A stretch of DNA of 64,000 nt from Elusimicrobiota bacterium (GTDB taxonomy: Bacteria; Elusimicrobiota; Elusimicrobia; UBA1565; JACRDR01), in the NCBI GenBank assembly GCA_041694815.1, contig JBGFSC010000006.1, forward strand, positions 1 through 64,000, read 5' to 3'. This document shows, piece after piece, positions 4,578-36,278 of the stretch (its first letter is position 1; every line of letters starts with the position of its first letter). The position numbers and the translations under genes were made by a program. The notes under the pieces are model-generated. The model saw only the letters and a program-made list of their open reading frames with translations, did no database searches and was not told the origin of the DNA.

Positions 4578-4640
4578 GGCTCGGAGACATTAAACCGATT
4601 CGGAATAAAGCCTTATGGACGATTATGCTACGATCATGCG

Positions 4641-5147
4641 ATGGGATCTCCGACGGTCGAGGAGCTGATCCGTCTCCATGACCTTAAACCACATCCGGAA
4701 GGCGGCTATTACAAGGAAACGTATCGTGCCCCTGCGCTCTGCGAGCGATCGGCGCTGCCGCCGGGATTTAAGGGAGACCGAAATTTCTCCACGGCCATCC
4801 TATTCCTGCTCCCAGGAGGGGCGACGTCCAAGCTGCACCGCATCCCGGCCGACGAGATGTGGCATTTTTATCTCGGCGACCCGCTGACGGTGGTGCAGAT
4901 CTCACCGCGGGGGCGGGTCGAATTGATCCGTTTGGGCCATGATTTGGGCTCTGGCCTGGCCCTGCAGCACGTGGTGCCGGCCGGTTATTGGTTCGGGGCC
5001 TACTGCAACCCCGGCGGGGCCTATTCCCTGGTGGGCTGCACCGTGTCGCCGGGCTTCGATTTCGCTGATTTCGAGCTCGGCAAGAAAGAAAATCTCTTAA
5101 GAGAGTTCCCGGCCGCGCGGGCCATCATCGAGCATTTGGGGCATTAG
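4641..5147 (+). CDS. Cupin_5 (DUF985) family protein
   Basis: LKPHPEGGYYKETYR, STAILFLL, HRI.ADEMWHFY.GDPL, LVGCTVSPGFDFADFE. Confidence 0.92.
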   Translation: MGSPTVEELIRLHDLKPHPEGGYYKETYRAPALCERSALPPGFKGDRNFSTAILFLLPGGATSKLHRIPADEMWHFYLGDPLTVVQISPRGRVELIRLGHDLGSGLALQHVVPAGYWFGAYCNPGGAYSLVGCTVSPGFDFADFELGKKENLLREFPAARAIIEHLGH

Positions 5148-5940
5148 CCCCGTACCTATAAAAGCCTTGGCCGGACTTCTTGCCTAATGCGCCGGAGCCG
5201 ACTTTTTCAACCAGCAGGGGGCAGGGGCGGTACTTTTCGTCGCCGAGCTGCCGGTGCAGGGTCTCGAGTATGGCCAGGCAGATATCGAGGCCGATGAAGT
5301 CGGCCAGGGCCAGCGGGCCCATCGGATGACCCATGCCCAATTTCATGACCGTATCGATGTCCTCGGCCGAGGCCACCTTCTCGTGTAAGGCCCAGCAGGC
5401 CTCGTTGATCATCGGCATGAGTATGCGGTTGGCGATGAAACCCGGGGCGTCACGGGAGACGACCGGCGTCTTTCCCAAGGCGATCGCCACGGAACGAGTC
5501 GTCTCGAAGGCCGTCTCGGAGGTCTCGTCGGCGGGGATGATCTCGACGAGCTTCATCACCGGGGCGGGGTTCATGAAGTGCATCCCGATCACCCTGTCCT
5601 GGCGGCGGAGCCCCTCGGCGATCTTGGAGATGGGCAGCGAGGAGGTATTGGAGGCGAGCACCGTCTCCGGCATGCAGGCGCGTTCGAGCTCGGTGAAGAG
5701 GGCCCGCTTGGCGCCCAAGTCCTCGACGATCGCCTCGACTACGAACTCAGCCCCCGAGGCGTCGGCGATGCGCTCCGACGAGGCGACCCTAGCGGCGTCC
5801 TTGATGCGGCCCATGGCCTTTCGCAGCGCCTCCGGGTCCTTGTCGATGAGCGTCGTTCGGTAGCCGGACTGGGCGAAGAGCTGGGCGATGCCTCGTCCCA
5901 TGGTGCCGGCGCCGATGACGGCGACGCGCTGGATCAGCAT
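5125..5940 (-). CDS. hbd: 3-hydroxybutyryl-CoA dehydrogenase
   Basis: GAGTMGRG Rossmann motif, LASNTSS, GMHFMNP, PGFIANR, HPMGPLALADFIGLD. Confidence 0.92.
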   Translation of the reverse strand: MLIQRVAVIGAGTMGRGIAQLFAQSGYRTTLIDKDPEALRKAMGRIKDAARVASSERIADASGAEFVVEAIVEDLGAKRALFTELERACMPETVLASNTSSLPISKIAEGLRRQDRVIGMHFMNPAPVMKLVEIIPADETSETAFETTRSVAIALGKTPVVSRDAPGFIANRILMPMINEACWALHEKVASAEDIDTVMKLGMGHPMGPLALADFIGLDICLAILETLHRQLGDEKYRPCPLLVEKVGSGALGKKSGQGFYRYGANAPNAR

Positions 5941-9393: not shown

Positions 9394-9840
9394 TCTGTCA
9401 ATTGGAGAGCCGCCGCCGCGCCGGCCCTCGGGCTTTCCGATGAGGGCCGGGGTGGCGCCCTCGCCCAGCGGGACCGAAGAGGATTCGGGTGCCAATTGCT
9501 CCTGCTGGCGGCGCAATTGGCGGCTCATGCGCTTCATGTGGGCCTTGGCCTCGGCCTCCGACATCGGGCCGAGCTCGGCGGGGGCCGCGTCCTTGTCCGG
9601 GGGCACGATCTCGACGATGCCCATCTTTTTCTTCTCCTTCTCTAGGAAATCGTGGATCATCTCGTTGTTGACCGGAGGTGCGGGCTCGGCCAAGGCCGGC
9701 CCATCCATGGGGCCGGCGGGCCCCGCAGGGCCCGGGTTTTCTACGTACGGCAGGGGTTCAGGCCGGTGCAGGAAGGCGTAGAGCGCAGCACAGAGGAAGG
9801 CGGCGGCCGCCGCCCAGGCGACGGCGCGCAGGCGAGGCAT
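9391..9840 (-). CDS. Hypothetical membrane-anchored Pro-rich protein
   Basis: N-terminal TM; start codon overlaps the coaD stop. Confidence 0.65.
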   Translation of the reverse strand: MPRLRAVAWAAAAAFLCAALYAFLHRPEPLPYVENPGPAGPAGPMDGPALAEPAPPVNNEMIHDFLEKEKKKMGIVEIVPPDKDAAPAELGPMSEAEAKAHMKRMSRQLRRQQEQLAPESSSVPLGEGATPALIGKPEGRRGGGSPIDR

Positions 9841-10325
9841 TAGCTCCTTGTCTTGAACTTAACGCGCATCTGGCGCGCTACGACCGGTGGCACCATTTCG
9901 TCCAACTTCGATCCCATGCGCCCCACCTCCTTGACCATCGAGGAGGAAAGGTAGGTGTATTGCTCGTCGGGCATGAGAAAAACGGTCTCGACCTTCGGGT
10001 AGAGACGGCGGTTCATGGAGGCCATCTGGAACTCGTAGTCCAAATCCGAGACGGCGCGAAGGCCGCGGATGACGATATGCGCGTTCTTGAGCTTCAAATA
10101 GTCCACCAGCAGCCCGCTGAAGGTGTCGACCTCGGCCTGGGGGATGCCCCGGACGCTTTTTTCGAGCATGTCGAGCCGCTCGTGCACGCTGAAGGTATGC
10201 TTTTTAGACGGGTTATTGGACACCGCGATGATTACACGGTCGAACATGCGGCAGGCGCGGGCGATCAGGTCCAGGTGGCCGAGAGTGACGGGATCGAAAC
10301 TGCCAGGATAAACCGCTACGGTCAT
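9840..10325 (-). CDS. coaD: Phosphopantetheine adenylyltransferase
   Basis: AVYPGSFDPVTLGH, RGLRAVSDLDYEFQMA.MN, SSSMVKE. Confidence 0.97.
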   Translation of the reverse strand: MTVAVYPGSFDPVTLGHLDLIARACRMFDRVIIAVSNNPSKKHTFSVHERLDMLEKSVRGIPQAEVDTFSGLLVDYLKLKNAHIVIRGLRAVSDLDYEFQMASMNRRLYPKVETVFLMPDEQYTYLSSSMVKEVGRMGSKLDEMVPPVVARQMRVKFKTRS

Positions 10326-20309: not shown

Positions 20310-20393
20310 TGTCGATTTTGGGCGAGCGTTGCTAAAATCCACAACGTTGTTTTCGTACCTTGCGCGCAAGCCAAGGCAACTCGGGAGGTGGAA

Positions 20394-22460
20394 ATGCTTC
20401 TGTCACAGACTCGGCGGTTTTGGCTGGCCGCGCTCGCCGCGGCCCTCCTCGGAACGTCCGCGCATGCGGTAGGGCGTTCCGACATCGAAATGCTGCTGCG
20501 GCGCCGTGACGCCGCGACCGCAAGGAATCTCACCCTTCTCGTCCGTGACCGTGGGCAGAATTTCCTTGCCAAGATCACGGCCGGCAGGCCGGATTCCGAC
20601 AAGGCCGTGCACGCCTGGGCCTTCGCGCATCCCGAGACCGCGGCCGATCTTTACTCCCTCCTGATTCAACGCGGCCGTGCCGGAGCCGAGGCGTTCGCGC
20701 GTCCGGAGTCCACTTATAAGGGAATCGAAGGCCACGCGCAGATGGTGGCCGACGACAAGAAGGCGTCGGCCGAGCAGGCCAACGGCAACGCGGGCAAGCC
20801 GTTCGACGGCTCAAGCAAGAAGGACGGATCGCTTCCCGTCAATACGGGCCCGGTCGCGAAGCCCAACGGCCAGCCGTCCGCCCAGAAGAAACCGGACAAT
20901 CTCCTCGAGCGCTTGAGGAAGTGGATGGATGATGAGCGCGACGGCGTCCCCGGCTCGAGCGGCAAGCGCGAGAGCGGCAAGGTCACCTTCAAGGATGTCA
21001 TCGGCCTCAAGGAAGCCAAGGCGCAGATCATACAGTTCGTCGACATACTCAAGAATCCCGAGAAGTACGCGCGCCTGGGCGCGGAGGTGCCGCGTGGCAT
21101 CCTGATGGTGGGGCCTCCCGGCAACGGCAAGACCCTTCTGGGCAAGGCTCTCGCCAACGAGGCGGGCTTCTCCTGCTTCATCGCGAAAGCGGGTCCTGAG
21201 TTCTCCAGTAAATGGGTCGGCGAGAGCGCGGCCGAGATCCGCCGCACCTTCGAGCAGGCCCGTGCGCAGGAGCCCTGCATCATCTTCATCGACGAATTGG
21301 ACGGCTTGGCGGCGGCCCGCACCGGCATCGACCAGTCCGTGGCCCGCGAATACAACTCCACCGTCGAGCAGCTGCTCGTCGAGATGGACGGCTTGACCGA
21401 GCACAGCAAGAACGGCAAGGTGCCGAAGGTCTTCGTCATCGGCGCCACGAACCGGCCGGACCTTCTCGACCCTGCGGTCATGCGCCCCGGGCGCCTGGAC
21501 CTGCATGTCGTGATCACCTCGCCCGACATCAAGGATCGCGAGGAGATGATCAAGTACTACGTCAAGAAGAAGAAAGTCCCGGCCAACGCCGACGTGGACT
21601 TCAAGATCCTGGCTGGCCGCACCACCGGCATGTCCGGAGCCGCGATCAAGGACTTCGTCAACAAGGCCGCCTTGGTGGCCGCGGAGGAGAACGCCCAGGA
21701 TGTCACGCTCAAGCATTTTCTCAAGGCCCTCGACCGGCTGCAAATCGGCGGCGAGCGGCGCATGGTGCTTAGCGACGCCGAGAAGATCATTACCGCGCGC
21801 CATGAGCTGGGCCACGCCCTGGTCGCCACCTATACGAAGGGCGGCGATCCCGTAGGCAAGATCACGATCATCCCGCGCGACATCGGCGCGCTCGGCGTGA
21901 CGACCTCCGAGCCGCCGGAAGACCGGAAGAATTGGAGCAAGACCCAGCTCCTCAACCAGATCGCCATGGCCATGGGAGGGCGCGTCGCTGAGAAGATTTT
22001 CTACAACGACGAGACCACCGGCGCCGCGAGCGACCTGGAGAATTCCCAGAACCTCGCCTGGCAGATGGTCGTGCGCTTCGGCATGAGCGAAAAGCTGGGG
22101 CCGGTTTCCTTCGTCAAGACCGCCCAGGGCAATTATCTCTCCGGCGGAGCCTCGATGCAGCCTGTTAGCGAAGAAATTCAAAAGCTCATCGACTCCGAGG
22201 TCAAGCGCTTCCTGCTCGAGGCCGAGCAGCGGGCCATGGCCATCCTTACCGCCAAGAAGGATGTCTTGGACAAGGTGGTGCCATACCTGATCAAACAGGA
22301 AACCATGGAGGGTTCGGACCTGCGCAAGCTGCTCAAGGAGTTAGACACGAACCCGGGAGAGTATCCCGTGCAGGACCCCCCGCCGCAACAGCCGGGCTCG
22401 GATAAGCCCTTCGCGACCACCCCGACCAATCTAGGGTGCTCGGCAGGCAGGCTGTATTAA
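20394..22460 (+). CDS. ftsH: FtsH-like AAA+ zinc protease with a cleavable signal peptide and no TM anchor
   Basis: GPPGNGKT, IIFIDELD, ATNRPDLLDPAVMRPGRLD, HELGH, GGRVAE, TTGAASDL. Leader MLLSQTRRFWLAALAAALLGTSAHA; SD ggagg. Confidence 0.9.
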   Translation: MLLSQTRRFWLAALAAALLGTSAHAVGRSDIEMLLRRRDAATARNLTLLVRDRGQNFLAKITAGRPDSDKAVHAWAFAHPETAADLYSLLIQRGRAGAEAFARPESTYKGIEGHAQMVADDKKASAEQANGNAGKPFDGSSKKDGSLPVNTGPVAKPNGQPSAQKKPDNLLERLRKWMDDERDGVPGSSGKRESGKVTFKDVIGLKEAKAQIIQFVDILKNPEKYARLGAEVPRGILMVGPPGNGKTLLGKALANEAGFSCFIAKAGPEFSSKWVGESAAEIRRTFEQARAQEPCIIFIDELDGLAAARTGIDQSVAREYNSTVEQLLVEMDGLTEHSKNGKVPKVFVIGATNRPDLLDPAVMRPGRLDLHVVITSPDIKDREEMIKYYVKKKKVPANADVDFKILAGRTTGMSGAAIKDFVNKAALVAAEENAQDVTLKHFLKALDRLQIGGERRMVLSDAEKIITARHELGHALVATYTKGGDPVGKITIIPRDIGALGVTTSEPPEDRKNWSKTQLLNQIAMAMGGRVAEKIFYNDETTGAASDLENSQNLAWQMVVRFGMSEKLGPVSFVKTAQGNYLSGGASMQPVSEEIQKLIDSEVKRFLLEAEQRAMAILTAKKDVLDKVVPYLIKQETMEGSDLRKLLKELDTNPGEYPVQDPPPQQPGSDKPFATTPTNLGCSAGRLY

Positions 22461-22482: not shown

Positions 22483-23826
22483 ATGGATCAGCCCGCCGGG
22501 GCTTCAGACGACGCGCTCGGGGCTAAAAGCTCCGAGCGCGTCGTCGCTTTTCTGCTGTTTCTCTGGCTTTTTTCCATCATCTGTTCGTATTACATCCTGC
22601 GCCCCGTCCGCAGCGCGCTGATCCTCTCGGAGTTCGGGCCCAAGGCTCTCCCCTGGGCGTACATGGGCACGGCGCTGTTTACCGGCATCGCGGTCTGGAT
22701 TTACACCCAGTTCACGTACCTGCCGCGTAAGACGCTGCTTACCCGCGTGATCCTGTTTTTTATCTCCAATTTCGCCGTGTTGTGGTGGATCGTCAGCAGG
22801 CGCATCCCTTGGTCGGCCGGCATTTTTTACGTCTGGACGGACATTTTCTCCATCATGGCCGTGACGGTTTTTTGGATGTACGTAAACGACGTCTTTCCCT
22901 CGAAGTCCGCCAAGCGGAGCTTCGGCATCATCGGTTCGGCAGGCCCGGCCGGCGCCATCGCCGGCGCCGCCTTGATCAAAATTTTCGTCCGCCGTGTGGG
23001 CGTGGAGCAGATGCTGCTGGTCGCTGGCGGATTCTTCGGCTTAGGGCTGTTGATTTTTTGGGCGCTCGAGTTCCTCACCGGTGGACGATCGGCTGAGCGC
23101 AAGAAGGCGATAGAGAAATTCGAGCAATACAATTTTTCCGAGTTTTCCAGCTTGATGCGTTCCGTGGCGCGATCAAGGGTGCTGACCCTGTTGACGGTCG
23201 CCGTGTGCTTCGAGCGTTTCGCGCCGGATTTCGTTGATTACGTGTTTTCGGCGGCCCTGCATCATGCCTATCCGGACAAGCTCGGCTACGCGGCCGTCTT
23301 CGCCACCTTCGAGTTCTGGCGCAACGTGCTCGTGTTCATCGCCACGCTGTCGCTCACCTCGACCATCCTGCGCACGCTCGGAGTGCACGTGGCCATTACC
23401 GCCGTGCCGATGACCATCCTCATCGGTGGCGCGGCCTACGCGCTGTTCCCGTTCCTGGGGGTGGCCATCGCCTTGAAGGGCTTGGAGGAGGGCCAGCGGC
23501 ATGCGTGGTTTAAGGCGGGCAAGGAAGTGATCTATACGGCCACGCATTCCGACGTCATCTACAAGGTCAAGGGCTATCTCGAGATGTTCCTCTACCGTTT
23601 TTCGCGGGGTCTGGCTGGCCTCATCATCTTGTTCTTGACCAGCGGTCTGGGTCTGGGCGCCGTCGGCGTGGCCTGGGCCGTGGTCCCGCTGGCCGCGCTG
23701 TGGGCGGTCGTGACCTGGAAGCTGGGCAAGGCGTACGAAACCAGCGAGGCCGGAGCGGCCGATAAAGAGGAGCCCGCTCTCCCCTTGGGCAAAGAGGCGT
23801 CAATATCTCAAGGTGCCAGGGATTGA
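22483..23826 (+). CDS. NTT/TLC-family (ATP/ADP translocase-like) MFS-fold transporter
   Basis: About 12 TM; YYILRPVRSAL, FYVWTDIF, FW..VNDVF...AKR.FG.IG..G..G, KEVIY......YKVKGYLEMFLYR match NTT-family signature spacing. Confidence 0.78.
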   Translation: MDQPAGASDDALGAKSSERVVAFLLFLWLFSIICSYYILRPVRSALILSEFGPKALPWAYMGTALFTGIAVWIYTQFTYLPRKTLLTRVILFFISNFAVLWWIVSRRIPWSAGIFYVWTDIFSIMAVTVFWMYVNDVFPSKSAKRSFGIIGSAGPAGAIAGAALIKIFVRRVGVEQMLLVAGGFFGLGLLIFWALEFLTGGRSAERKKAIEKFEQYNFSEFSSLMRSVARSRVLTLLTVAVCFERFAPDFVDYVFSAALHHAYPDKLGYAAVFATFEFWRNVLVFIATLSLTSTILRTLGVHVAITAVPMTILIGGAAYALFPFLGVAIALKGLEEGQRHAWFKAGKEVIYTATHSDVIYKVKGYLEMFLYRFSRGLAGLIILFLTSGLGLGAVGVAWAVVPLAALWAVVTWKLGKAYETSEAGAADKEEPALPLGKEASISQGARD

Positions 23827-31954: not shown

Positions 31955-33230
31955 TCGTTTATTCCGCCGGGCTTGCGGACTGCTGCCAGGCGGGGTCAAT
32001 TCGCCGGTGAGGGCCTTCAAGGCGGTCGGCGGCACTCCGCGCTTTATCCGCTCAGGCAAGGGAGCTCGAATTTTAGATGAGGATGGGCGTTCCTATATCG
32101 ATTATTGCCTTTCCTGGGGACCTCTTATCCTAGGCCATGCCCACCCCGCCGTCGTCGCCGCAGCGTCTCGCGCACTGAAAAGGGGATCGAGCTTCGGCGC
32201 GCCGACCGAGGCCGAATCGCGGCTGGCCGAGTTGATCCGCTCCGCCTTGCCCTCGATGCGTATGCTGAGGCTGACGAGCTCAGGCACCGAGGCCGTCATG
32301 AGCGCCCTGCGCCTGGCCCGCGCCTTCACGAGGCGTGACTGGATCGTGAAGTTCTCGGGATGCTATCACGGTCATGTCGACAGCCTGCTGGTCTCCGCTG
32401 GCTCAGGCGCTATGACATTAGGCAGTCCGGATTCCGCGGGCGTACCCGAATCTTGGGCCCGGATGACGCTTTCTTTGTCTTACAACGATGTCGCTTCCGT
32501 CGAGAACGCGTTCGCCCAATATGGCGGGCGCATCGCCGCCGTCATCATCGAGCCGCTGGCCGCGAACATGGGAGTCGTGGCGCCGCGCGAAGGATTTCTC
32601 AAGGCCTTGCGCGAGATCACCCGGCGGCACGGGGCCTTGCTTATCTTCGACGAGGTGGTGACCGGCTTCCGTCTGGAGTTCGGCGGCGCCCAGACGCTCT
32701 GGAAGATAGAGCCCGATCTGACCTGCCTGGGAAAAATTATTGGAGGGGGATTTCCAATCGGCGCTTACGGGGGGCGGCGCGAAATCATGGAGATGGTAGC
32801 GCCTTTGGGGCCGGTGTATCAGGCGGGGACCCTCTCCGGCAACCCCGTCGCCGTCGCCGCCGGCATCGCCTGTCTCGAGACTCTCCGCCGCCAGAAGCCG
32901 TACGCGCGCATGGCGCGTCTGGCCTCGCGGCTCGCCGAGGGGTTGCGCCGGCAGGCGTCGGGACTGGGCGTGCCCTTGACCGTCCAGCAATTCGCCTCTA
33001 TGCTGACCCCTTTCTTTCACGCAGGACCGATCAGCGATTACGCCAGCGCGAAGGCGGCCGACACCCGGGCTTACGCCCGATTCTTCCATGCCATGCTTCG
33101 CGAGGGAATATACCTGCCTCCGGCGCAATTCGAGGCCGCCTTCCTGTCAGCCGCGCATACCGAAAAGGACGTCGATCTCAGCTTGAGGGCAGCGGGTAGG
33201 GCGCTGGATTCGCTAACGCGAAGGACTTAG
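31941..33230 (+). CDS. hemL: Glutamate-1-semialdehyde 2,1-aminomutase
   Basis: PGGVNSPVRAF, SWGPLILGH, SGTEA, FDEVVTGFR, GKIIGGG, YQAGTLSGNP. Confidence 0.97.
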   Translation: MEKSDRLFRRACGLLPGGVNSPVRAFKAVGGTPRFIRSGKGARILDEDGRSYIDYCLSWGPLILGHAHPAVVAAASRALKRGSSFGAPTEAESRLAELIRSALPSMRMLRLTSSGTEAVMSALRLARAFTRRDWIVKFSGCYHGHVDSLLVSAGSGAMTLGSPDSAGVPESWARMTLSLSYNDVASVENAFAQYGGRIAAVIIEPLAANMGVVAPREGFLKALREITRRHGALLIFDEVVTGFRLEFGGAQTLWKIEPDLTCLGKIIGGGFPIGAYGGRREIMEMVAPLGPVYQAGTLSGNPVAVAAGIACLETLRRQKPYARMARLASRLAEGLRRQASGLGVPLTVQQFASMLTPFFHAGPISDYASAKAADTRAYARFFHAMLREGIYLPPAQFEAAFLSAAHTEKDVDLSLRAAGRALDSLTRRT

Positions 33231-33824
33231 CGAGACGAGCACTGGAAGGCCTTTGTAGAAAAAAACGAGGACGCCTTCCGGCAAGCCCATGGCGGCTCTC
33301 TGATCGGCGGACGCTTCCTTGACGCCAGCTACCTTGCGGATGGCCATGAGTACGCGCGACTGAGTCGCGATCCCGCTGTCGATGCCCACGAGTATCGCGG
33401 GGGGCGCGGGGATGACGCCGATGCTTACCCGCGGCCTATCTCCGTCATCGTAAACGGGGATCGGTATGCGATTCAAGGCGTCCGCGAATTCCTTCGCGGT
33501 CCGGAGCAGGTCTTCTTCTTTTGGTGCGCCTCCGCCGAACATGGTCGATAGAATTTGCTCCATCAGCTTGTTCTGATCCGAGCCGCGGCCCTGCGGAGCC
33601 GCTTGGATTTTCGGGATTTCCAGAAGCGGCAGTTTCCCATCCGCATCAGCCAGATTTGCCGGTCCTTCCTTTGTATAGCCTTCCGGCAAGGTGAGTAAGG
33701 GCAGTTTTCCCTGCTCGTCGAATTGGGCATCGCCCTGTTGCCTGGCATCCTCCGGGCTTTCGGCGAAGCAGGGAACGCCCGCTAAGAATACGGCGCTTAC
33801 GGCGAGAGTGAATATGGAGTTCAT
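33213..33824 (-). CDS. Secreted hypothetical protein with the SxExA..FD / KLPLL N-terminal module
   Basis: Signal MNSIFTLAVSAVFLAGVPCFA; N-terminal module paralogous to 35667-36278. Confidence 0.75.
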   Translation of the reverse strand: MNSIFTLAVSAVFLAGVPCFAESPEDARQQGDAQFDEQGKLPLLTLPEGYTKEGPANLADADGKLPLLEIPKIQAAPQGRGSDQNKLMEQILSTMFGGGAPKEEDLLRTAKEFADALNRIPIPVYDDGDRPRVSIGVIPAPPAILVGIDSGIATQSRVLMAIRKVAGVKEASADQRAAMGLPEGVLVFFYKGLPVLVSLSPSR

Positions 33825-33954: not shown

Positions 33955-35664
33955 ATGAAAAAACTACCCGTCGTACTCGCCCTCTTCACCGTATTATCCG
34001 TCGCGCCCAGCCCACGCTCCTATGCCCAGTTCGGCAATCCGTTCGCCGCGCAGGAGGAGCAACATAAGAAGGTCGTAGGAAGGCTCGGCGAAGCGCTCAA
34101 TGCCAAGCAGTCCGAGATGCCTAAGGATGTTTGGAAGAGAGTCCATGAGGAATATAACCGCCTCCTTAATATGCAGCCCCACAATCCCGAGGCCCAGAAA
34201 TCGATAGATTACCTGCAATGGTTCATCGATCTTCCTTGGGGAAAAGAGACCCAGGATCGATTCGACCTGGCGGAGGCTCAAAAGATATTAGACCGCGATC
34301 ATTACGGGCTCGACCAGGTCAAGGAGCGTGTCATCGAGTACCTGGCGGTCCGCAAGAGAACCGCCTCGCAGAAGGGAGGCATTCTCTGCTTCGTGGGGCC
34401 CAAGGGAACCGGGAAAACCTCCATCGCCAAGGCCATCGCCGAGTCCATGGGCCGCAGCTTCGTCCGCTTGTCTCTGGGCGGAGTCAATAACGAGGCGGAA
34501 TTGCGCGGGTTTCAGAGGACCTATATGGGATCACGGCCGGGCAGCATCATCACCCAGATGAAGAACGCCAAGACGATAAACCCCGTGATGCTCATGGACG
34601 AGGTGGACAAGCTGGCCGATGGCAGTCACTACGGCGATCCTCGGGCGGCGCTCTTGGAGATCCTCGACCCGGAGCAAAATAATACCTTCCGGGACCATTA
34701 TATGGATGTCCCCTATGATTTGTCGAAGGTGCTCTTCATCCTCACGGCCAACGATATGAGGAGGATCCCACCGCCCCTGCTCGACCGCGTGGAGATCATC
34801 GAGTTCTCGGCCTACACGGTGCGCGAGAAGGTGGGCATAGCCCAGCACCATATCGTGGGCCGTAAGCAGCGCGAATGCGGCATCAAGCCGGGCTCCTGCG
34901 AGCTCACCGTCGCGGCCATCGAGCAGATCATCGACGGCTACACGATGGAGGCCGGGGTGCGCAACCTGCAGGAGAACATCGGCGGCGTCTACCGCAAGGC
35001 CGCCGCCTGGGAGGAGACCAAGGGCCTGCCCATCCCCAAGAAGATCGATCATGGGCAGGTGAAGGATTACCTGGGAGCCCCGCGCTACGGCCACCGCATC
35101 ATGGAGGAAAACGGCGTCGGGGTCGGCACGGGCTTGGCGGTCAGCGACAACGGCGGGAGCACGCTCAACGTCGAGGTGCTCAAGGTGCCCGGAGACGGCA
35201 AGGTCCGCACCCGTGAGTTGATGGAGAAGATGTTCCAGGATTCCGCCGACAATGCCGTGGCCTACGTCAAGTCCAAGGCCGTGGAACTGGGCATCGATCC
35301 GGAGGATTTCAAGAAATACGATCTGGAGATCGCGATAGCTCCCGCGATTCCGGTCGACGGGCCTTCGGCGGGTACCGCCATGACCACGGCGATCGCGAGC
35401 AGCTTGAGCGGCCGCAGGATCCGTAAGGGAGTAGCCATGACCGGCGAGGTCACGTTGACCGGCAAGGTGCTCCCGATCGGTGGGCTCAAGCAGAAGGTGA
35501 TGGCGGCCGAGCGCATGGGCTACGACACGGTGCTTTTCCCCGCCGCCAACGAGCATGAGCTCGAGGAGATTTCCCCCGAAGTGCGCAAGAAGATGACATT
35601 GGTGCCCGTCAAGACGATGGACGAGGTCTTGAATCTGGCCTTGGAGCCCCGGCCCCAGGCCTGA
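33955..35664 (+). CDS. lon: Lon protease lacking the LON_N substrate domain, with signal peptide
   Basis: LD.DHYGL..VKERV.EYLAV, GPKGTGKTS, MDEVDK, ALLEILDPEQN..F.DHY, DGPSAG (Ser), PIGGLKQK (Lys). Leader MKKLPVVLALFTVLSVAPSPRSYA. Confidence 0.92.
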   Translation: MKKLPVVLALFTVLSVAPSPRSYAQFGNPFAAQEEQHKKVVGRLGEALNAKQSEMPKDVWKRVHEEYNRLLNMQPHNPEAQKSIDYLQWFIDLPWGKETQDRFDLAEAQKILDRDHYGLDQVKERVIEYLAVRKRTASQKGGILCFVGPKGTGKTSIAKAIAESMGRSFVRLSLGGVNNEAELRGFQRTYMGSRPGSIITQMKNAKTINPVMLMDEVDKLADGSHYGDPRAALLEILDPEQNNTFRDHYMDVPYDLSKVLFILTANDMRRIPPPLLDRVEIIEFSAYTVREKVGIAQHHIVGRKQRECGIKPGSCELTVAAIEQIIDGYTMEAGVRNLQENIGGVYRKAAAWEETKGLPIPKKIDHGQVKDYLGAPRYGHRIMEENGVGVGTGLAVSDNGGSTLNVEVLKVPGDGKVRTRELMEKMFQDSADNAVAYVKSKAVELGIDPEDFKKYDLEIAIAPAIPVDGPSAGTAMTTAIASSLSGRRIRKGVAMTGEVTLTGKVLPIGGLKQKVMAAERMGYDTVLFPAANEHELEEISPEVRKKMTLVPVKTMDEVLNLALEPRPQA

Positions 35665-35666
35665 TC

Positions 35667-36278
35667 ATGAGCAAGGCCACGGCAAGCTACTGGCTCGCCT
35701 TAGCCATTATCGCGCTCTCTGCGGTTGGCCGCGCGGCGGAGACCGCCAAAAGCGACGAGGAGGCCAAGCAGCAGGCTGACCTCCAATTCGATGAGTCGGG
35801 CAAACTGCCCCTACTTACCTTACCGAAAGGGTATAAAGCGGAAAGACCGGCGATGGGCAGTCTCGGAACAGCTCCTCTTAATATCACCGATGCGCAGGAC
35901 AAGCTTCCGCTCTTGCCGATCCCTTCACCGGCTCCAGCCCGACGCGCCGGGCCGAACGTGCTTGAAGGGCTTATCGGCAGCTTGATCGGCTCCGCCATCG
36001 GCAGCCATGTATTTGTCAATGTCTTTACCCCGATGTTCTCGGCGCAGCCGCTGCTGATCCCCATCGTCGCGGCTATTTTCGGCATGTCCATGGGGACTCG
36101 CATGGCCATGCCGATGGCGATGTTGATAAGGCGTCGCTGGCCCATGATCGTTATGCCCCTGTTGCTCGGAGCCGTTTGCTTCCTGATCCCTCCCATGGGT
36201 GGAGCGATATGGGGAATGATGATTCTGGGACCGCTATTCGCCCGCCTTTTGGCTAAACTCGGGTCTTTAAAGAAGTAA
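35667..36278 (+). CDS. Secreted/membrane protein with the SxExA..FD / KLPLL module and a hydrophobic Met/Gly-rich C-terminus
   Basis: Signal peptide; 2 bp after lon; several C-terminal hydrophobic helices. Confidence 0.75.
   Translation: MSKATASYWLALAIIALSAVGRAAETAKSDEEAKQQADLQFDESGKLPLLTLPKGYKAERPAMGSLGTAPLNITDAQDKLPLLPIPSPAPARRAGPNVLEGLIGSLIGSAIGSHVFVNVFTPMFSAQPLLIPIVAAIFGMSMGTRMAMPMAMLIRRRWPMIVMPLLLGAVCFLIPPMGGAIWGMMILGPLFARLLAKLGSLKK

What the first reader, a model, noticed from the sequence alone, without database searches (positions are those of the whole stretch)
20394..22460. Soluble FtsH with a signal peptide instead of the two-TM anchor
Only one hydrophobic segment is present, ending in an AHA cleavage site. 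About 170 aa of soluble, unrecognised sequence follow, then an intact AAA+ module and an HEXXH protease. With no second TM, the ATPase would be translocated out of the cytoplasm. The leader has TRRFWL, resembling a Tat motif.
Basis: partly seen in the sequence, partly recalled or inferred. Interest (0 to 1): 0.8.

Follow-up and report, generated by a model that had tools for sequence, protein, structure and literature searches.

The report
FtsH-type protease with an export signal
An uncultured groundwater bacterium encodes an intact ATP-driven FtsH-type protease that starts with a secretion signal where the usual membrane anchor should be. It sits next to a gene resembling an ATP/ADP transporter, which hints that this lineage may run ATP-powered protein breakdown outside the cytoplasm.

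Summary
Window 20394..22460 (+) encodes a 688-aa FtsH-family protein with one short, signal-peptide-like hydrophobic segment ending in AHA. About 170 unrecognised residues follow, then an intact AAA+ module and an M41 HEXXH protease. There is no second transmembrane helix.

It is not a one-off. Six relatives, all that two very large protein searches found, share the build.

- In the 3 of 3 genomes where flanks are readable, the gene is directly followed by a TLC/NTT-family (ATP/ADP-transporter-like) gene. That transporter's orthologue was found in no other genome searched.
- The same genome also has signal-peptide-bearing extra copies of Lon, two ClpA/B-type ATPases and adenylate kinase, beside the normal cytoplasmic copies. 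The exported-type adenylate kinase is conserved across this Elusimicrobiota order.
- The linker carries a short "FDG" tag that also sits behind the signal peptide of many exported proteins of this genome.

Best reading (about 0.45): the catalytic domains work outside the cytoplasmic membrane, fed with adenine nucleotides by the transporter. Main rival (about 0.3): the leader is a tether or sorting tag and the enzyme stays cytoplasmic.

The Tat-like RR is not conserved (4 of 7). No topology predictor, structure prediction or complex prediction could be run.

The parts
20383..20388 (+). Shine-Dalgarno-like GGGAGG, 5 nt before ATG 20394
   Evidence: Read from the sequence.
20394..22460 (+). FtsH-like gene, 688 aa plus stop
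   Evidence: The catalytic part best matches solved FtsH (2ce7, E 1e-108) and also Yme1 (6az0, E 1e-93).
20394..20468 (+). Signal-peptide-like leader, residues 1-25: RR n-region, Ala/Leu h-region, AHA site
   Evidence: The same grammar is present in 7 of 7 clade members. Judged by rules and hydropathy, not by a trained predictor.
20469..20708 (+). Clade-specific N-domain, residues 26-105, weakly conserved (W..HP..A..Y..LL)
   Evidence: Alignments. No hit.
20709..20978 (+). Low-complexity Gly/Ser/Pro/Lys/Asp-rich linker, residues 106-195, in place of TM2
20802..20810 (+). FDG tag (F137-D138-G139) inside the linker. Conserved as FDG, FEG, MDG or FDN in all 7 clade members.
   Evidence: The same tag follows the signal peptide in other proteins of the genome and sits in linkers of exported-type adenylate kinases of relatives.
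21099..21515 (+). AAA+ ATPase core (Pfam AAA 236-374) with Walker A, Walker B, pore loop KWVG, sensor-1 and arginine fingers
21591..21722 (+). AAA lid (residues 400-443)
21762..22331 (+). Peptidase M41 domain (457-646). HELGH lies at 21801-21815 and the third ligand D547 at 22032-22034.
22507..22545 (+). Very stable GC-rich stem-loop (18-nt arms) between the two genes. It lies within codons 9-21 of the transporter frame as called.
   Evidence: z -5.5, 0 of 200 shuffles as stable. A stem-loop sits at the same junction in G005 and G001 (z -5.9 and -6.7).
22483..23826 (+). TLC/NTT-family MFS transporter gene, 447 aa, about 11-12 hydrophobic segments, 22 nt after the protease stop
   Evidence: PF03219, 40.4 bits, cut-off 21; TIGR00769, 34 bits against 387; PDB 9j3n 'ADP,ATP carrier protein 1', E 6.7e-5.

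Best explanation
This is a divergent, catalytically intact FtsH-family AAA+/M41 protease. Its two-helix membrane anchor has been replaced by a Sec-type signal peptide, a small clade-specific N-domain and a flexible linker carrying an 'FDG' tag.

I infer that the leader takes the ATPase and protease domains across the cytoplasmic membrane. They would then work in the periplasm, free or docked through the FDG tag. I further infer that adenine nucleotides reach it through the TLC/NTT-type exchanger encoded directly downstream (ATP out, ADP in), and that an exported adenylate kinase of the same genome rebalances the pool.

It would be one member of a second, extracytoplasmic set of ATP-dependent proteostasis machines in this Elusimicrobiota order: FtsH-, Lon- and ClpA/B-like. 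The nearest analogy is the mitochondrial intermembrane space with Yme1, the ADP/ATP carrier and adenylate kinase 2. That analogy is from my own knowledge, not from a call.

Shown: the gene, its intact motifs, the leader grammar, its conservation, and the conserved gene pair.

Inferred: export, cleavage, what the transporter carries and in which direction, and any contact between the two proteins.
For: 1. Leader. 7 of 7 clade members have K/R before a short h-region, a small-x-small site, a neutral or acidic early mature region and no later TM. In the six scored, the best 19-residue hydropathy window of the leader is at most 1.69. TM1 of the two anchored paralogues scores 1.98-2.33. Three signal peptidase I homologues are present.

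2. All ATP-binding and hydrolysis residues and the zinc site are invariant in the clade, so ATP is presumably used.

3. Gene pair. A TLC-family gene follows directly in 3 of 3 genomes with readable flanks: ours, G001 and G005, from two genera. The outer flanks differ. Its orthologue (E<1e-250) occurs only in those 3 of 41 genomes; the next best is 1.5e-142. All three junctions carry a strong stem-loop.

4. The genome has normal cytoplasmic copies of FtsH, Lon and adenylate kinase. It also has signal-peptide-bearing extra copies: a Lon-like gene at window 33955..35664, two ClpA/B-like genes and an adenylate kinase.

5. The exported-type adenylate kinase paralogue is found in 21 of 40 relatives at E<=4e-40, whereas ordinary adenylate kinases score no better than about 2e-24. 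In 10 of 10 full-length loci read, it starts with a signal-peptide-like N-terminus and a Pro/Ala/Val-rich spacer (judged by eye). In a phylum-wide draw it was found in 19 of 59 genomes of this order and in 0 of 341 outside it.

6. A ClpA/B-like orthologue in another family (G016) also starts with a signal-peptide-like segment.

7. The FDG tag sits right behind the signal-peptide-like N-terminus of other proteins in this genome.

8. Weak cysteine trend. The clade has 0-3 Cys. The exported-type adenylate kinase has 0 against 5 in the cytoplasmic one.
Against: 1. No bacterial periplasm is known to hold usable ATP, and ATP should leak through porins (textbook knowledge). Export of an ATPase is therefore a priori unlikely.

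2. The transporter is only a distant TLC member: 40 bits in Pfam, and 34 against a cut-off of 387 for the NTP/NDP exchanger model. Its substrate is unknown. TLC homologues of free-living bacteria have no known function (PMC5381601, passages read).

3. The gene pair is seen in only three genomes of one family, so it is in effect one evolutionary event. 13 of 15 genome loci and 13 of 13 metagenome loci with relatives of this transporter show no FtsH-like neighbour. Several of those contigs are too short upstream to tell.

4. The whole-genome screen was loose. It flagged 19.9% of all frames of at least 150 aa as signal-peptide-like, and 12 of 74 Walker-A frames, so there was no enrichment. The cases rest on manual reading.

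5. The pore-loop aromatic is Leu in P0006 and Asn in P0133, which hints at relaxed unfoldase function in part of the clade.

6. Unchecked earlier notes of this scan report the same kind of leader on MFS transporters whose first helix should start inside (e1-5304173). That would argue for a tether or sorting role. One related note was later marked 'part of it fell' (e1-1223696).

7. The exported-type Lon has no same-build orthologue among 40 relatives.
Confidence: 0.45

Rival explanations
1. The leader is not an export signal in practice. It would be a lineage-specific membrane tether or sorting tag: a hydrophobic helix, a spacer and an FDG docking motif. This tag holds the otherwise soluble FtsH-like hexamer at the cytoplasmic face of the inner membrane, perhaps on the TLC-like protein, which would be its anchor, partner or substrate.
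For: - ATPase residues are fully conserved, and cytoplasm is where ATP is (textbook).
- The linker replaces TM2 at the same position as the membrane-to-AAA linker of normal FtsH.
- Unchecked earlier notes report this leader class on polytopic transporters with an inward-facing N-terminus and on at least 66-84 protein families (e1-5304173, e1-4486108).
- A membrane protein is the conserved neighbour.
Against: - The h-regions are too short and too weakly hydrophobic for a stable helix anchor.
- Basic residues lie on the N-side, which by the positive-inside rule sends the C-terminal part out.
- A small-x-small site is kept in 7 of 7 members, and nothing needs it if the leader is never cleaved.
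- The same tag sits behind the signal-peptide-like N-terminus of other proteins of this genome.
- Canonical cytoplasmic paralogues coexist without the leader.
Confidence: 0.3
2. The protein is exported or secreted but uses foreign ATP. The organism would live on or in another cell, so host or prey ATP reaches its periplasm or the secreted enzyme. The TLC-type transporter would then import that ATP (energy parasitism) instead of exporting its own.
For: - All characterised TLC/NTT proteins import host nucleotides (PMC5381601, passages).
- Phytoplasma FtsH paralogues are predicted to face the host cytoplasm (PMC6981957, passages).
- In the two sister genomes the pair sits beside secreted trypsin-like and M23 peptidases.
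- The genome encodes giant secreted adhesin-like proteins (earlier notes e1-1089566, unchecked).
Against: - The genome is 2.77 Mb and 97.8% complete, and holds IMP dehydrogenase and other biosynthesis genes, so it is not visibly reduced.
- The transporter is far from the characterised importer clade.
- Relatives of this transporter occur in Myxococcales, Gemmatimonadota and Cyanobacteria/Melainabacteria MAGs.
Confidence: 0.15
3. The protein is exported through Tat as a folded, possibly nucleotide- and zinc-loaded protein, as the TRRFWL motif suggested to the first reader.
For: - T-R-R-x-hydrophobic-L is present in this protein.
- TatC is present in the genome.
- The h-region is only moderately hydrophobic.
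Against: The twin arginine is missing in 3 of 7 clade members (G001, P0004, P0133). True Tat substrates normally keep it (established knowledge).
Confidence: 0.05
4. The protein is exported and works without ATP turnover, with the AAA+ ring serving only as a scaffold for the M41 protease.
For: The pore-loop aromatic is lost in two members.
Against: Walker A, Walker B, sensor-1 and both arginines are invariant in 7 of 7 members. That is not expected for a dead ATPase.
Confidence: 0.05

Closest known systems
Bacterial FtsH (e.g. Thermotoga maritima 2ce7, E. coli 7vhp)
   Same: AAA+ module plus M41 zinc protease in one chain. The best PDB match is E 1e-108 over residues 196-650. HEXGH, the Asp ligand and the second region of homology are kept.
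   Different: There are no two TM helices and no FtsH_ext domain. It scores below the FtsH equivalog cut-off (486.6 against 600). The pore loop is K-W/F/Y-V-G-E-S, as in classical AAA proteins, where FtsH has M-F-V-G-V-G. The leader is of the signal-peptide type.
Mitochondrial i-AAA protease Yme1, with the ADP/ATP carrier and adenylate kinase 2 of the intermembrane space
   Same: It belongs to the same family (6az0, E 1e-93). Its catalytic domains face the space between two membranes, where nucleotides arrive through an exchanger and an adenylate kinase is resident. That arrangement is from my own knowledge; here it corresponds to the TLC-like neighbour and the exported-type adenylate kinase.
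   Different: Yme1 keeps an uncleaved TM anchor. The mitochondrial carrier belongs to another transporter family (SLC25). The analogy is functional only, and localisation here is untested.
Phytoplasma multi-copy FtsH/HflB paralogues predicted to face outwards (PMC6981957)
   Same: These are bacterial FtsH copies whose catalytic part is predicted in silico to lie outside the cell membrane (passages read).
   Different: Those are membrane-anchored proteins of wall-less intracellular bacteria bathed in host ATP, and the predictors disagreed. Here the organism is a diderm environmental bacterium, the N-terminus is of the cleavable type, and a transporter gene is attached.
TLC/NTT nucleotide transporters (Chlamydia/Rickettsia Npt/Tlc, plastid NTT; PDB 9j3n)
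   Same: The downstream gene passes the Pfam TLC threshold, and its best PDB match is an ADP,ATP carrier.
   Different: It is very distant from the characterised exchangers. It belongs to the uncharacterised forms found in free-living bacteria (PMC5381601).
Signal-peptide + spacer + FDG leader class noted earlier in this scan in other Elusimicrobiota genomes (e1-4359880, e1-1223696, e1-5304173)
   Same: The same three-part leader is reported on Lon and Clp machines. I found it here on FtsH-, Clp- and adenylate-kinase-type proteins.
   Different: Those notes are unchecked AI leads. As shown to me, they do not mention an FtsH-type cargo, a TLC neighbour or an exported adenylate kinase.

Membership tests
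FtsH (ATP-dependent zinc metalloprotease, TIGR01241 / MEROPS M41) | AAA+ module with Walker A/B, sensor-1 and arginine fingers | tested here: met
   Pfam AAA E 2.1e-37. The residues are invariant in 7 of 7 clade members.
FtsH (ATP-dependent zinc metalloprotease, TIGR01241 / MEROPS M41) | C-terminal M41 domain with HEXXH and an Asp third ligand | tested here: met
   Peptidase_M41 E 6.8e-58. H470, E471, H474 and D547 are invariant.
FtsH (ATP-dependent zinc metalloprotease, TIGR01241 / MEROPS M41) | Two N-terminal transmembrane helices flanking a periplasmic FtsH_ext domain | tested here: not met
   There is no FtsH_ext. There is one weak hydrophobic segment only, and none after residue 45.
FtsH (ATP-dependent zinc metalloprotease, TIGR01241 / MEROPS M41) | Score above the curated equivalog cut-off | tested here: not met
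   486.6 bits against 600; NF008004 361 against 1008.
Sec-type (signal peptidase I) signal peptide | Basic n-region, 7-15-residue h-region, small residues at -3 and -1, no later TM | tested here: met
   Rule-based reading and hydropathy in 7 of 7 members. No trained predictor was available.
Sec-type (signal peptidase I) signal peptide | Actual translocation and cleavage | not testable with these tools
   This needs fusions, fractionation or N-terminal proteomics.
Tat signal peptide | Conserved twin arginine in an S/T-R-R-x-F-L-K-like motif | tested here: not met
   RR is present in 4 of 7 members and absent in G001, P0004 and P0133.
TLC/NTT nucleotide transporter (the neighbour gene) | Pfam PF03219 above the gathering score | tested here: met
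   40.4 bits against 21. The own-genome scan gave 39.6 bits.
TLC/NTT nucleotide transporter (the neighbour gene) | Membership of the NTP/NDP exchanger model TIGR00769 | tested here: not met
   34.4 bits against 387.2.
TLC/NTT nucleotide transporter (the neighbour gene) | ATP/ADP counter-exchange | not testable with these tools
   This needs a transport assay.

The most novel reading that the evidence does not exclude
One order of Elusimicrobiota keeps an ATP-fuelled protein quality-control system outside the cytoplasmic membrane. It would consist of exported FtsH-, Lon- and ClpA/B-type machines, supplied through TLC/NTT-type nucleotide exchangers and balanced by an exported adenylate kinase, and sorted by a shared signal-peptide/spacer/FDG leader. 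This would be a bacterial counterpart of the mitochondrial intermembrane space, and an exception to the rule that the periplasm has no ATP.
Probability: 0.35. Interest if true: 0.95.

Novelty: new variant of a known kind. Interest (0 to 1): 0.8.

Why it matters
The absence of ATP in the periplasm is a founding assumption of envelope biology. It is the accepted reason why periplasmic chaperones and proteases are ATP-independent, and why Lol, Lpt, Ton and Tol draw their energy from the inner membrane.

A lineage that exports FtsH, Lon, Clp and adenylate kinase paralogues, and couples one of them to a nucleotide-transporter homologue, would break that rule. Alternatively it would reveal an unknown sorting route that mimics secretion signals.

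Either outcome can be tested with a few fusions and one transport assay. It would also give a first functional lead for the TLC/NTT homologues of free-living bacteria, whose role is unknown.

Tried and rejected
**Explanations rejected**
- Wrong start codon or fused ORF. The strong SD lies before ATG 20394, and the leader is kept in all six relatives.

**Searches that found nothing**
- Homologues of residues 1-200: only itself in the word-indexed search; nothing in the PDB or the ESM Atlas.
- The exhaustive profile search found full-length matches only to P0124 and itself among the 150 best, plus P0133 from profile position 142.
- A wider search for the clade found 0 of 400 phylum-sampled genomes at E<=1e-170, but only 3 candidates per genome were scored.
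- Search for a general partner of the transporter: neighbours of its relatives in other phyla are heterogeneous. The JGI metagenome scan gave 13 loci and none with an FtsH-like gene. Only about five of these had 1.5 kb or more upstream, and the closest (L101, 58%) is cut at the contig edge.
- The signal-peptide-bearing M41-like fragment without HEXXH (C18) has no orthologue in 40 relatives, so no co-occurrence test was possible.
- No exported-type DnaK or NDK was found: there is a single DnaK, and the NDK has no leader.
- No plant/bacterial-type glutaminyl cyclase (PF05096) was found.

**Weak or circular analyses**
- Whole-genome screen for signal peptide plus Walker A: not enriched (12 of 74 against 19.9% of all frames). 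I used it only to find candidates.
- FDG-tag HMM: the seeds were chosen by the motif itself, so its scores are descriptive, not a test.

**Literature**
- Searches for a signal-peptide or periplasmic FtsH or AAA+ protease, periplasmic ATP, and periplasmic adenylate kinase listed no paper describing such a system. This covers only the held open-access library.
Full report
**What is there.** The frame 20388..22460 (+) is open. ATG 20394 sits 5 nt behind GGGAGG and gives a 688-aa protein.

- Pfam finds AAA (236-374), AAA_lid_3 (400-443) and Peptidase_M41 (457-646), but no FtsH_ext.
- The NCBIfam FtsH equivalog scores 486.6 bits against a cut-off of 600.
- Residues 196-650 best match the solved cytoplasmic parts of FtsH (2ce7, E 1e-108). 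They also match AFG3L2 and Yme1 (6az0, E 1e-93).
- Walker A (GPPGNGKT), Walker B (DE 300-301), sensor-1 N353, R364/R367, HELGH 470-474 and D547 are all present.

**The N-terminus.** Only residues about 9-25 are hydrophobic, and weakly so: the best 19-residue Kyte-Doolittle window is 1.49. They end in SAHA|VG. No window beyond residue 45 exceeds 0.96.

The two other full FtsH paralogues of the genome have two clear helices each, scoring 1.98/2.22 and 2.33/1.71. In the alignment, the place of TM2 is taken by a Gly/Ser/Pro/Asp/Lys-rich linker.

Residues 26-195 match nothing in Pfam, NCBIfam, the PDB or the ESM Atlas. In the word-indexed search they matched only themselves.

**Is it a family?** Two searches address this.

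- The whole-protein word-indexed search scored 7998 candidates. It gave three proteins with 86-93% coverage and 540-564 bits (P0004-P0006). The next single-AAA hits reached at most 398 bits.
- The genome search among 40 relatives found orthologues only in G001 and G005, at 505 and 480 bits, with the next best at 359. Both belong to one sister genus of the same family. None was found in 3 other genomes of the family (79-91% complete) or in 35 genomes of two sister families.

An exhaustive profile search of 1.84 billion representatives found 147,444 family members. Among its 150 best, only P0124 (= G005) and the query itself matched full length. One more distant member, P0133, matched from profile position 142. 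A phylum-wide draw of 400 genomes gave no further member at E<=1e-170, though only 3 candidates per genome were scored.

All seven proteins share the same features:
- K/R before a short h-region, then a small-x-small site;
- a neutral or acidic start of the mature part;
- no second TM;
- a weakly conserved helical stretch;
- a linker with a conserved FDG-type motif (FDG, FEG, MDG or FDN);
- the pore loop K-[WFYL]-V-G-E-S, except P0133.

The clade is tiny but real, and its leader is under selection as a signal-peptide-like element. Record titles of the closest contigs name Elusimicrobia MAGs from groundwater.

**Tat or Sec.** TRRFWL is present, and TatC is in the genome. However, the twin arginine is kept in only 4 of 7 members. 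I therefore regard Sec as the general route. Three signal peptidase I homologues are present.

**The neighbour.** The next gene starts 22 nt after the stop, at 22483..23826 (447 aa, about 11-12 hydrophobic segments). It passes the Pfam TLC ATP/ADP-transporter threshold (40.4 bits against 21). Its only PDB sequence match is an 'ADP,ATP carrier protein 1' (9j3n, E 6.7e-5). It lies far below the NTP/NDP-exchanger model cut-off (34 bits against 387).

- In G001 and G005 the orthologous transporter (55-56% identity) also follows the FtsH-like gene directly, although the outer flanks differ. Ours has IMP dehydrogenase upstream and MazG downstream. Theirs have a trypsin-like and an M23 peptidase upstream and a Cys-rich secreted protein downstream.
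- Across 41 genomes the transporter orthologue (E<1e-250) is found in exactly those three. Looser TLC relatives occur in 22 of 40 relatives.
- Relatives of this transporter in Myxococcales, Gemmatimonadota, Cyanobacteria/Melainabacteria and other Elusimicrobia MAGs, and in JGI metagenomes, have no FtsH-like neighbour: 13 of 15 and 13 of 13 loci. Several contigs were too short upstream to judge.
- All three junctions hold a very stable GC stem-loop (z -5.5 to -6.7, 0 of 200 shuffles each).

The two genes thus behave as one unit, but in effect as one evolutionary event.

**A wider pattern in the same genome.** I ran a loose own-genome screen for a signal-peptide-like start plus Walker A with no later TM. 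The screen itself is not enriched: it flagged 12 of 74 Walker-A frames against 19.9% of all frames. After manual reading and Pfam it pointed to the following:
- a 569-aa Lon-like protein in this very window (33955..35664), with AAA, Lon_lid and Lon_C but no Lon N-domain;
- two ClpA/B-type double-AAA proteins of 806 and 764 aa, without Clp_N;
- a 219-aa adenylate kinase with a 30-residue leader;
- a 1439-aa Clp-like protein.

Ordinary copies of FtsH, Lon and adenylate kinase without leaders coexist with these.

Conservation of these extra copies varies.
- The leader-bearing adenylate kinase is a conserved paralogue, found in 21 of 40 relatives at E<=4e-40.
- In 10 of 10 full-length loci read, an upstream start gives a textbook-looking signal peptide followed by a Pro/Ala/Val-rich spacer. 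Three of these spacers also carry FDG or FDN (by eye).
- In a phylum draw this paralogue occurs in 19 of 59 genomes of this order and in 0 of 341 elsewhere.
- A Clp-like orthologue in another family (G016) also starts with a signal-peptide-like segment.
- The Lon-like form has no same-build orthologue in 40 relatives.

An FDG-type tag lies directly behind the signal peptide of some 16-20 further proteins of the genome. Of 18 sent to Pfam, 13 matched no family; the rest were three WD40 propellers, one VWA and one FGE-sulfatase protein. The tag HMM was seeded by the motif itself, so these scores are descriptive only. Two tagged 203-aa paralogues flank the Lon-like gene.

Earlier unchecked notes of this scan describe the same leader on Lon and Clp machines and on many other proteins in other Elusimicrobiota genomes. 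I treat these as leads only. One was later marked 'part of it fell', and one reports a topology paradox on MFS transporters that would speak against simple export.

**How it most likely works.**

*Shown:* an intact ATP-dependent protease with a secretion-type leader in place of an anchor, conserved, and locked to a TLC-family gene.

*Inferred (0.45):* the catalytic domains are translocated. The transporter exchanges cytoplasmic ATP for periplasmic ADP, and the exported adenylate kinase buffers the pool. The FDG tag docks the enzyme to an unknown partner.

The arrangement parallels Yme1, the ADP/ATP carrier and adenylate kinase 2 in the mitochondrial intermembrane space (my own knowledge).

*Against:* the periplasm is not known to hold ATP, the transporter's substrate is unknown, and all evidence is sequence grammar and synteny within one lineage.

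*Rivals:*
- a tether or sorting tag with the enzyme staying cytoplasmic (0.3);
- use of host or prey ATP, with the transporter importing (0.15), for which phytoplasma FtsH paralogues predicted to face outwards are the closest precedent (PMC6981957, passages read);
- Tat export (0.05);
- an ATP-independent scaffold (0.05).

**Novelty and limits.** The protein is a new architectural variant of the FtsH family. The system-level reading would be categorically new if proven.

My literature searches listed no description of a signal-peptide FtsH or of an ATP-fed bacterial periplasm. They cover only the held open-access library. The NTT survey (PMC5381601, passages read) states that NTT homologues of free-living bacteria are uncharacterised.

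Structure prediction, complex prediction, topology predictors, sequencing-run look-up and the contig look-up for the four metagenomic relatives were unavailable or empty. The topology question therefore stays open.

Noticed in passing
window 33955..35664 (+): A 569-aa Lon-like protease (AAA, Lon_lid, Lon_C, Ser-Lys dyad region present). It lacks the Lon N-domain and starts with a signal-peptide-like segment. A normal Lon exists on contig C3. No same-build orthologue was found in 40 relatives.
   Followed up: partly
window 33213..33824 (-) and 35667..36278 (+): Two paralogous 203-aa proteins flank the Lon-like gene. Each has a signal peptide followed by an acidic stretch and a QFDE(Q/S)GKLPLL tag. 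The second has hydrophobic C-terminal segments.
   Followed up: no
G000 contig C9:74299-74958 (outside the window; L043 4300-4959): A second adenylate kinase with a 30-residue signal-peptide-like leader and no cysteine. The paralogue is conserved in this order (19 of 59 in the phylum draw, 0 of 341 outside). It shows signal-peptide-like starts in 10 of 10 loci read.
   Followed up: yes
G000 C2:22715-25135 (L041), C15:3073-5367 (L042), C9:74955-79274 (L043, minus strand): Three ClpA/B-type double-AAA proteins without Clp_N that start with hydrophobic, signal-peptide-like segments. The 1439-aa one also has C-terminal hydrophobic segments and lies back to back with the leader-bearing adenylate kinase. 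An orthologue in G016 has the same kind of start.
   Followed up: partly
G000 C18 (L004 1291..1908, minus strand): A 205-aa protein with a signal peptide plus an M41-like domain in which HEXXH is replaced (no His, no Glu). This is an exported-looking pseudo-protease fragment. No orthologue was found in 40 relatives.
   Followed up: partly
window 22507..22545; L018 8195..8232; L017 2362..2395: A stable GC-rich stem-loop lies between the protease and transporter genes in all three genomes (z -5.5 to -6.7). In the window it lies inside the first 21 codons of the transporter frame as called. It may set the ratio of the two products.
   Followed up: partly
G000 C27 (L003 451..2151): A third FtsH paralogue of 566 aa, with two closely spaced TM helices, no periplasmic domain and an intact HEAGH.
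   Followed up: no
G000 C25:48698-49987: A second TLC-like gene (429 aa). It lies near genes that look like a PiT-type phosphate transporter with a PhoU-like partner, and near a histidine kinase. The neighbours were read by eye and not scanned.
   Followed up: no
L018 3708..6018 and 9604..10284; L017 460..1188 and 4619..5659: In the sister genus the gene pair is flanked by a secreted trypsin-like peptidase, an M23 peptidase and a Cys-rich secreted protein of 226-242 aa with no family match.
   Followed up: no
G000, about 16-20 genes (e.g. L082-L098): An acidic stretch ending in F-D/E-G lies directly behind the signal peptide of many small orphan proteins, three WD40 propellers, a VWA protein and an FGE-sulfatase-domain protein. 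This is a candidate post-export sorting or docking tag.
   Followed up: partly
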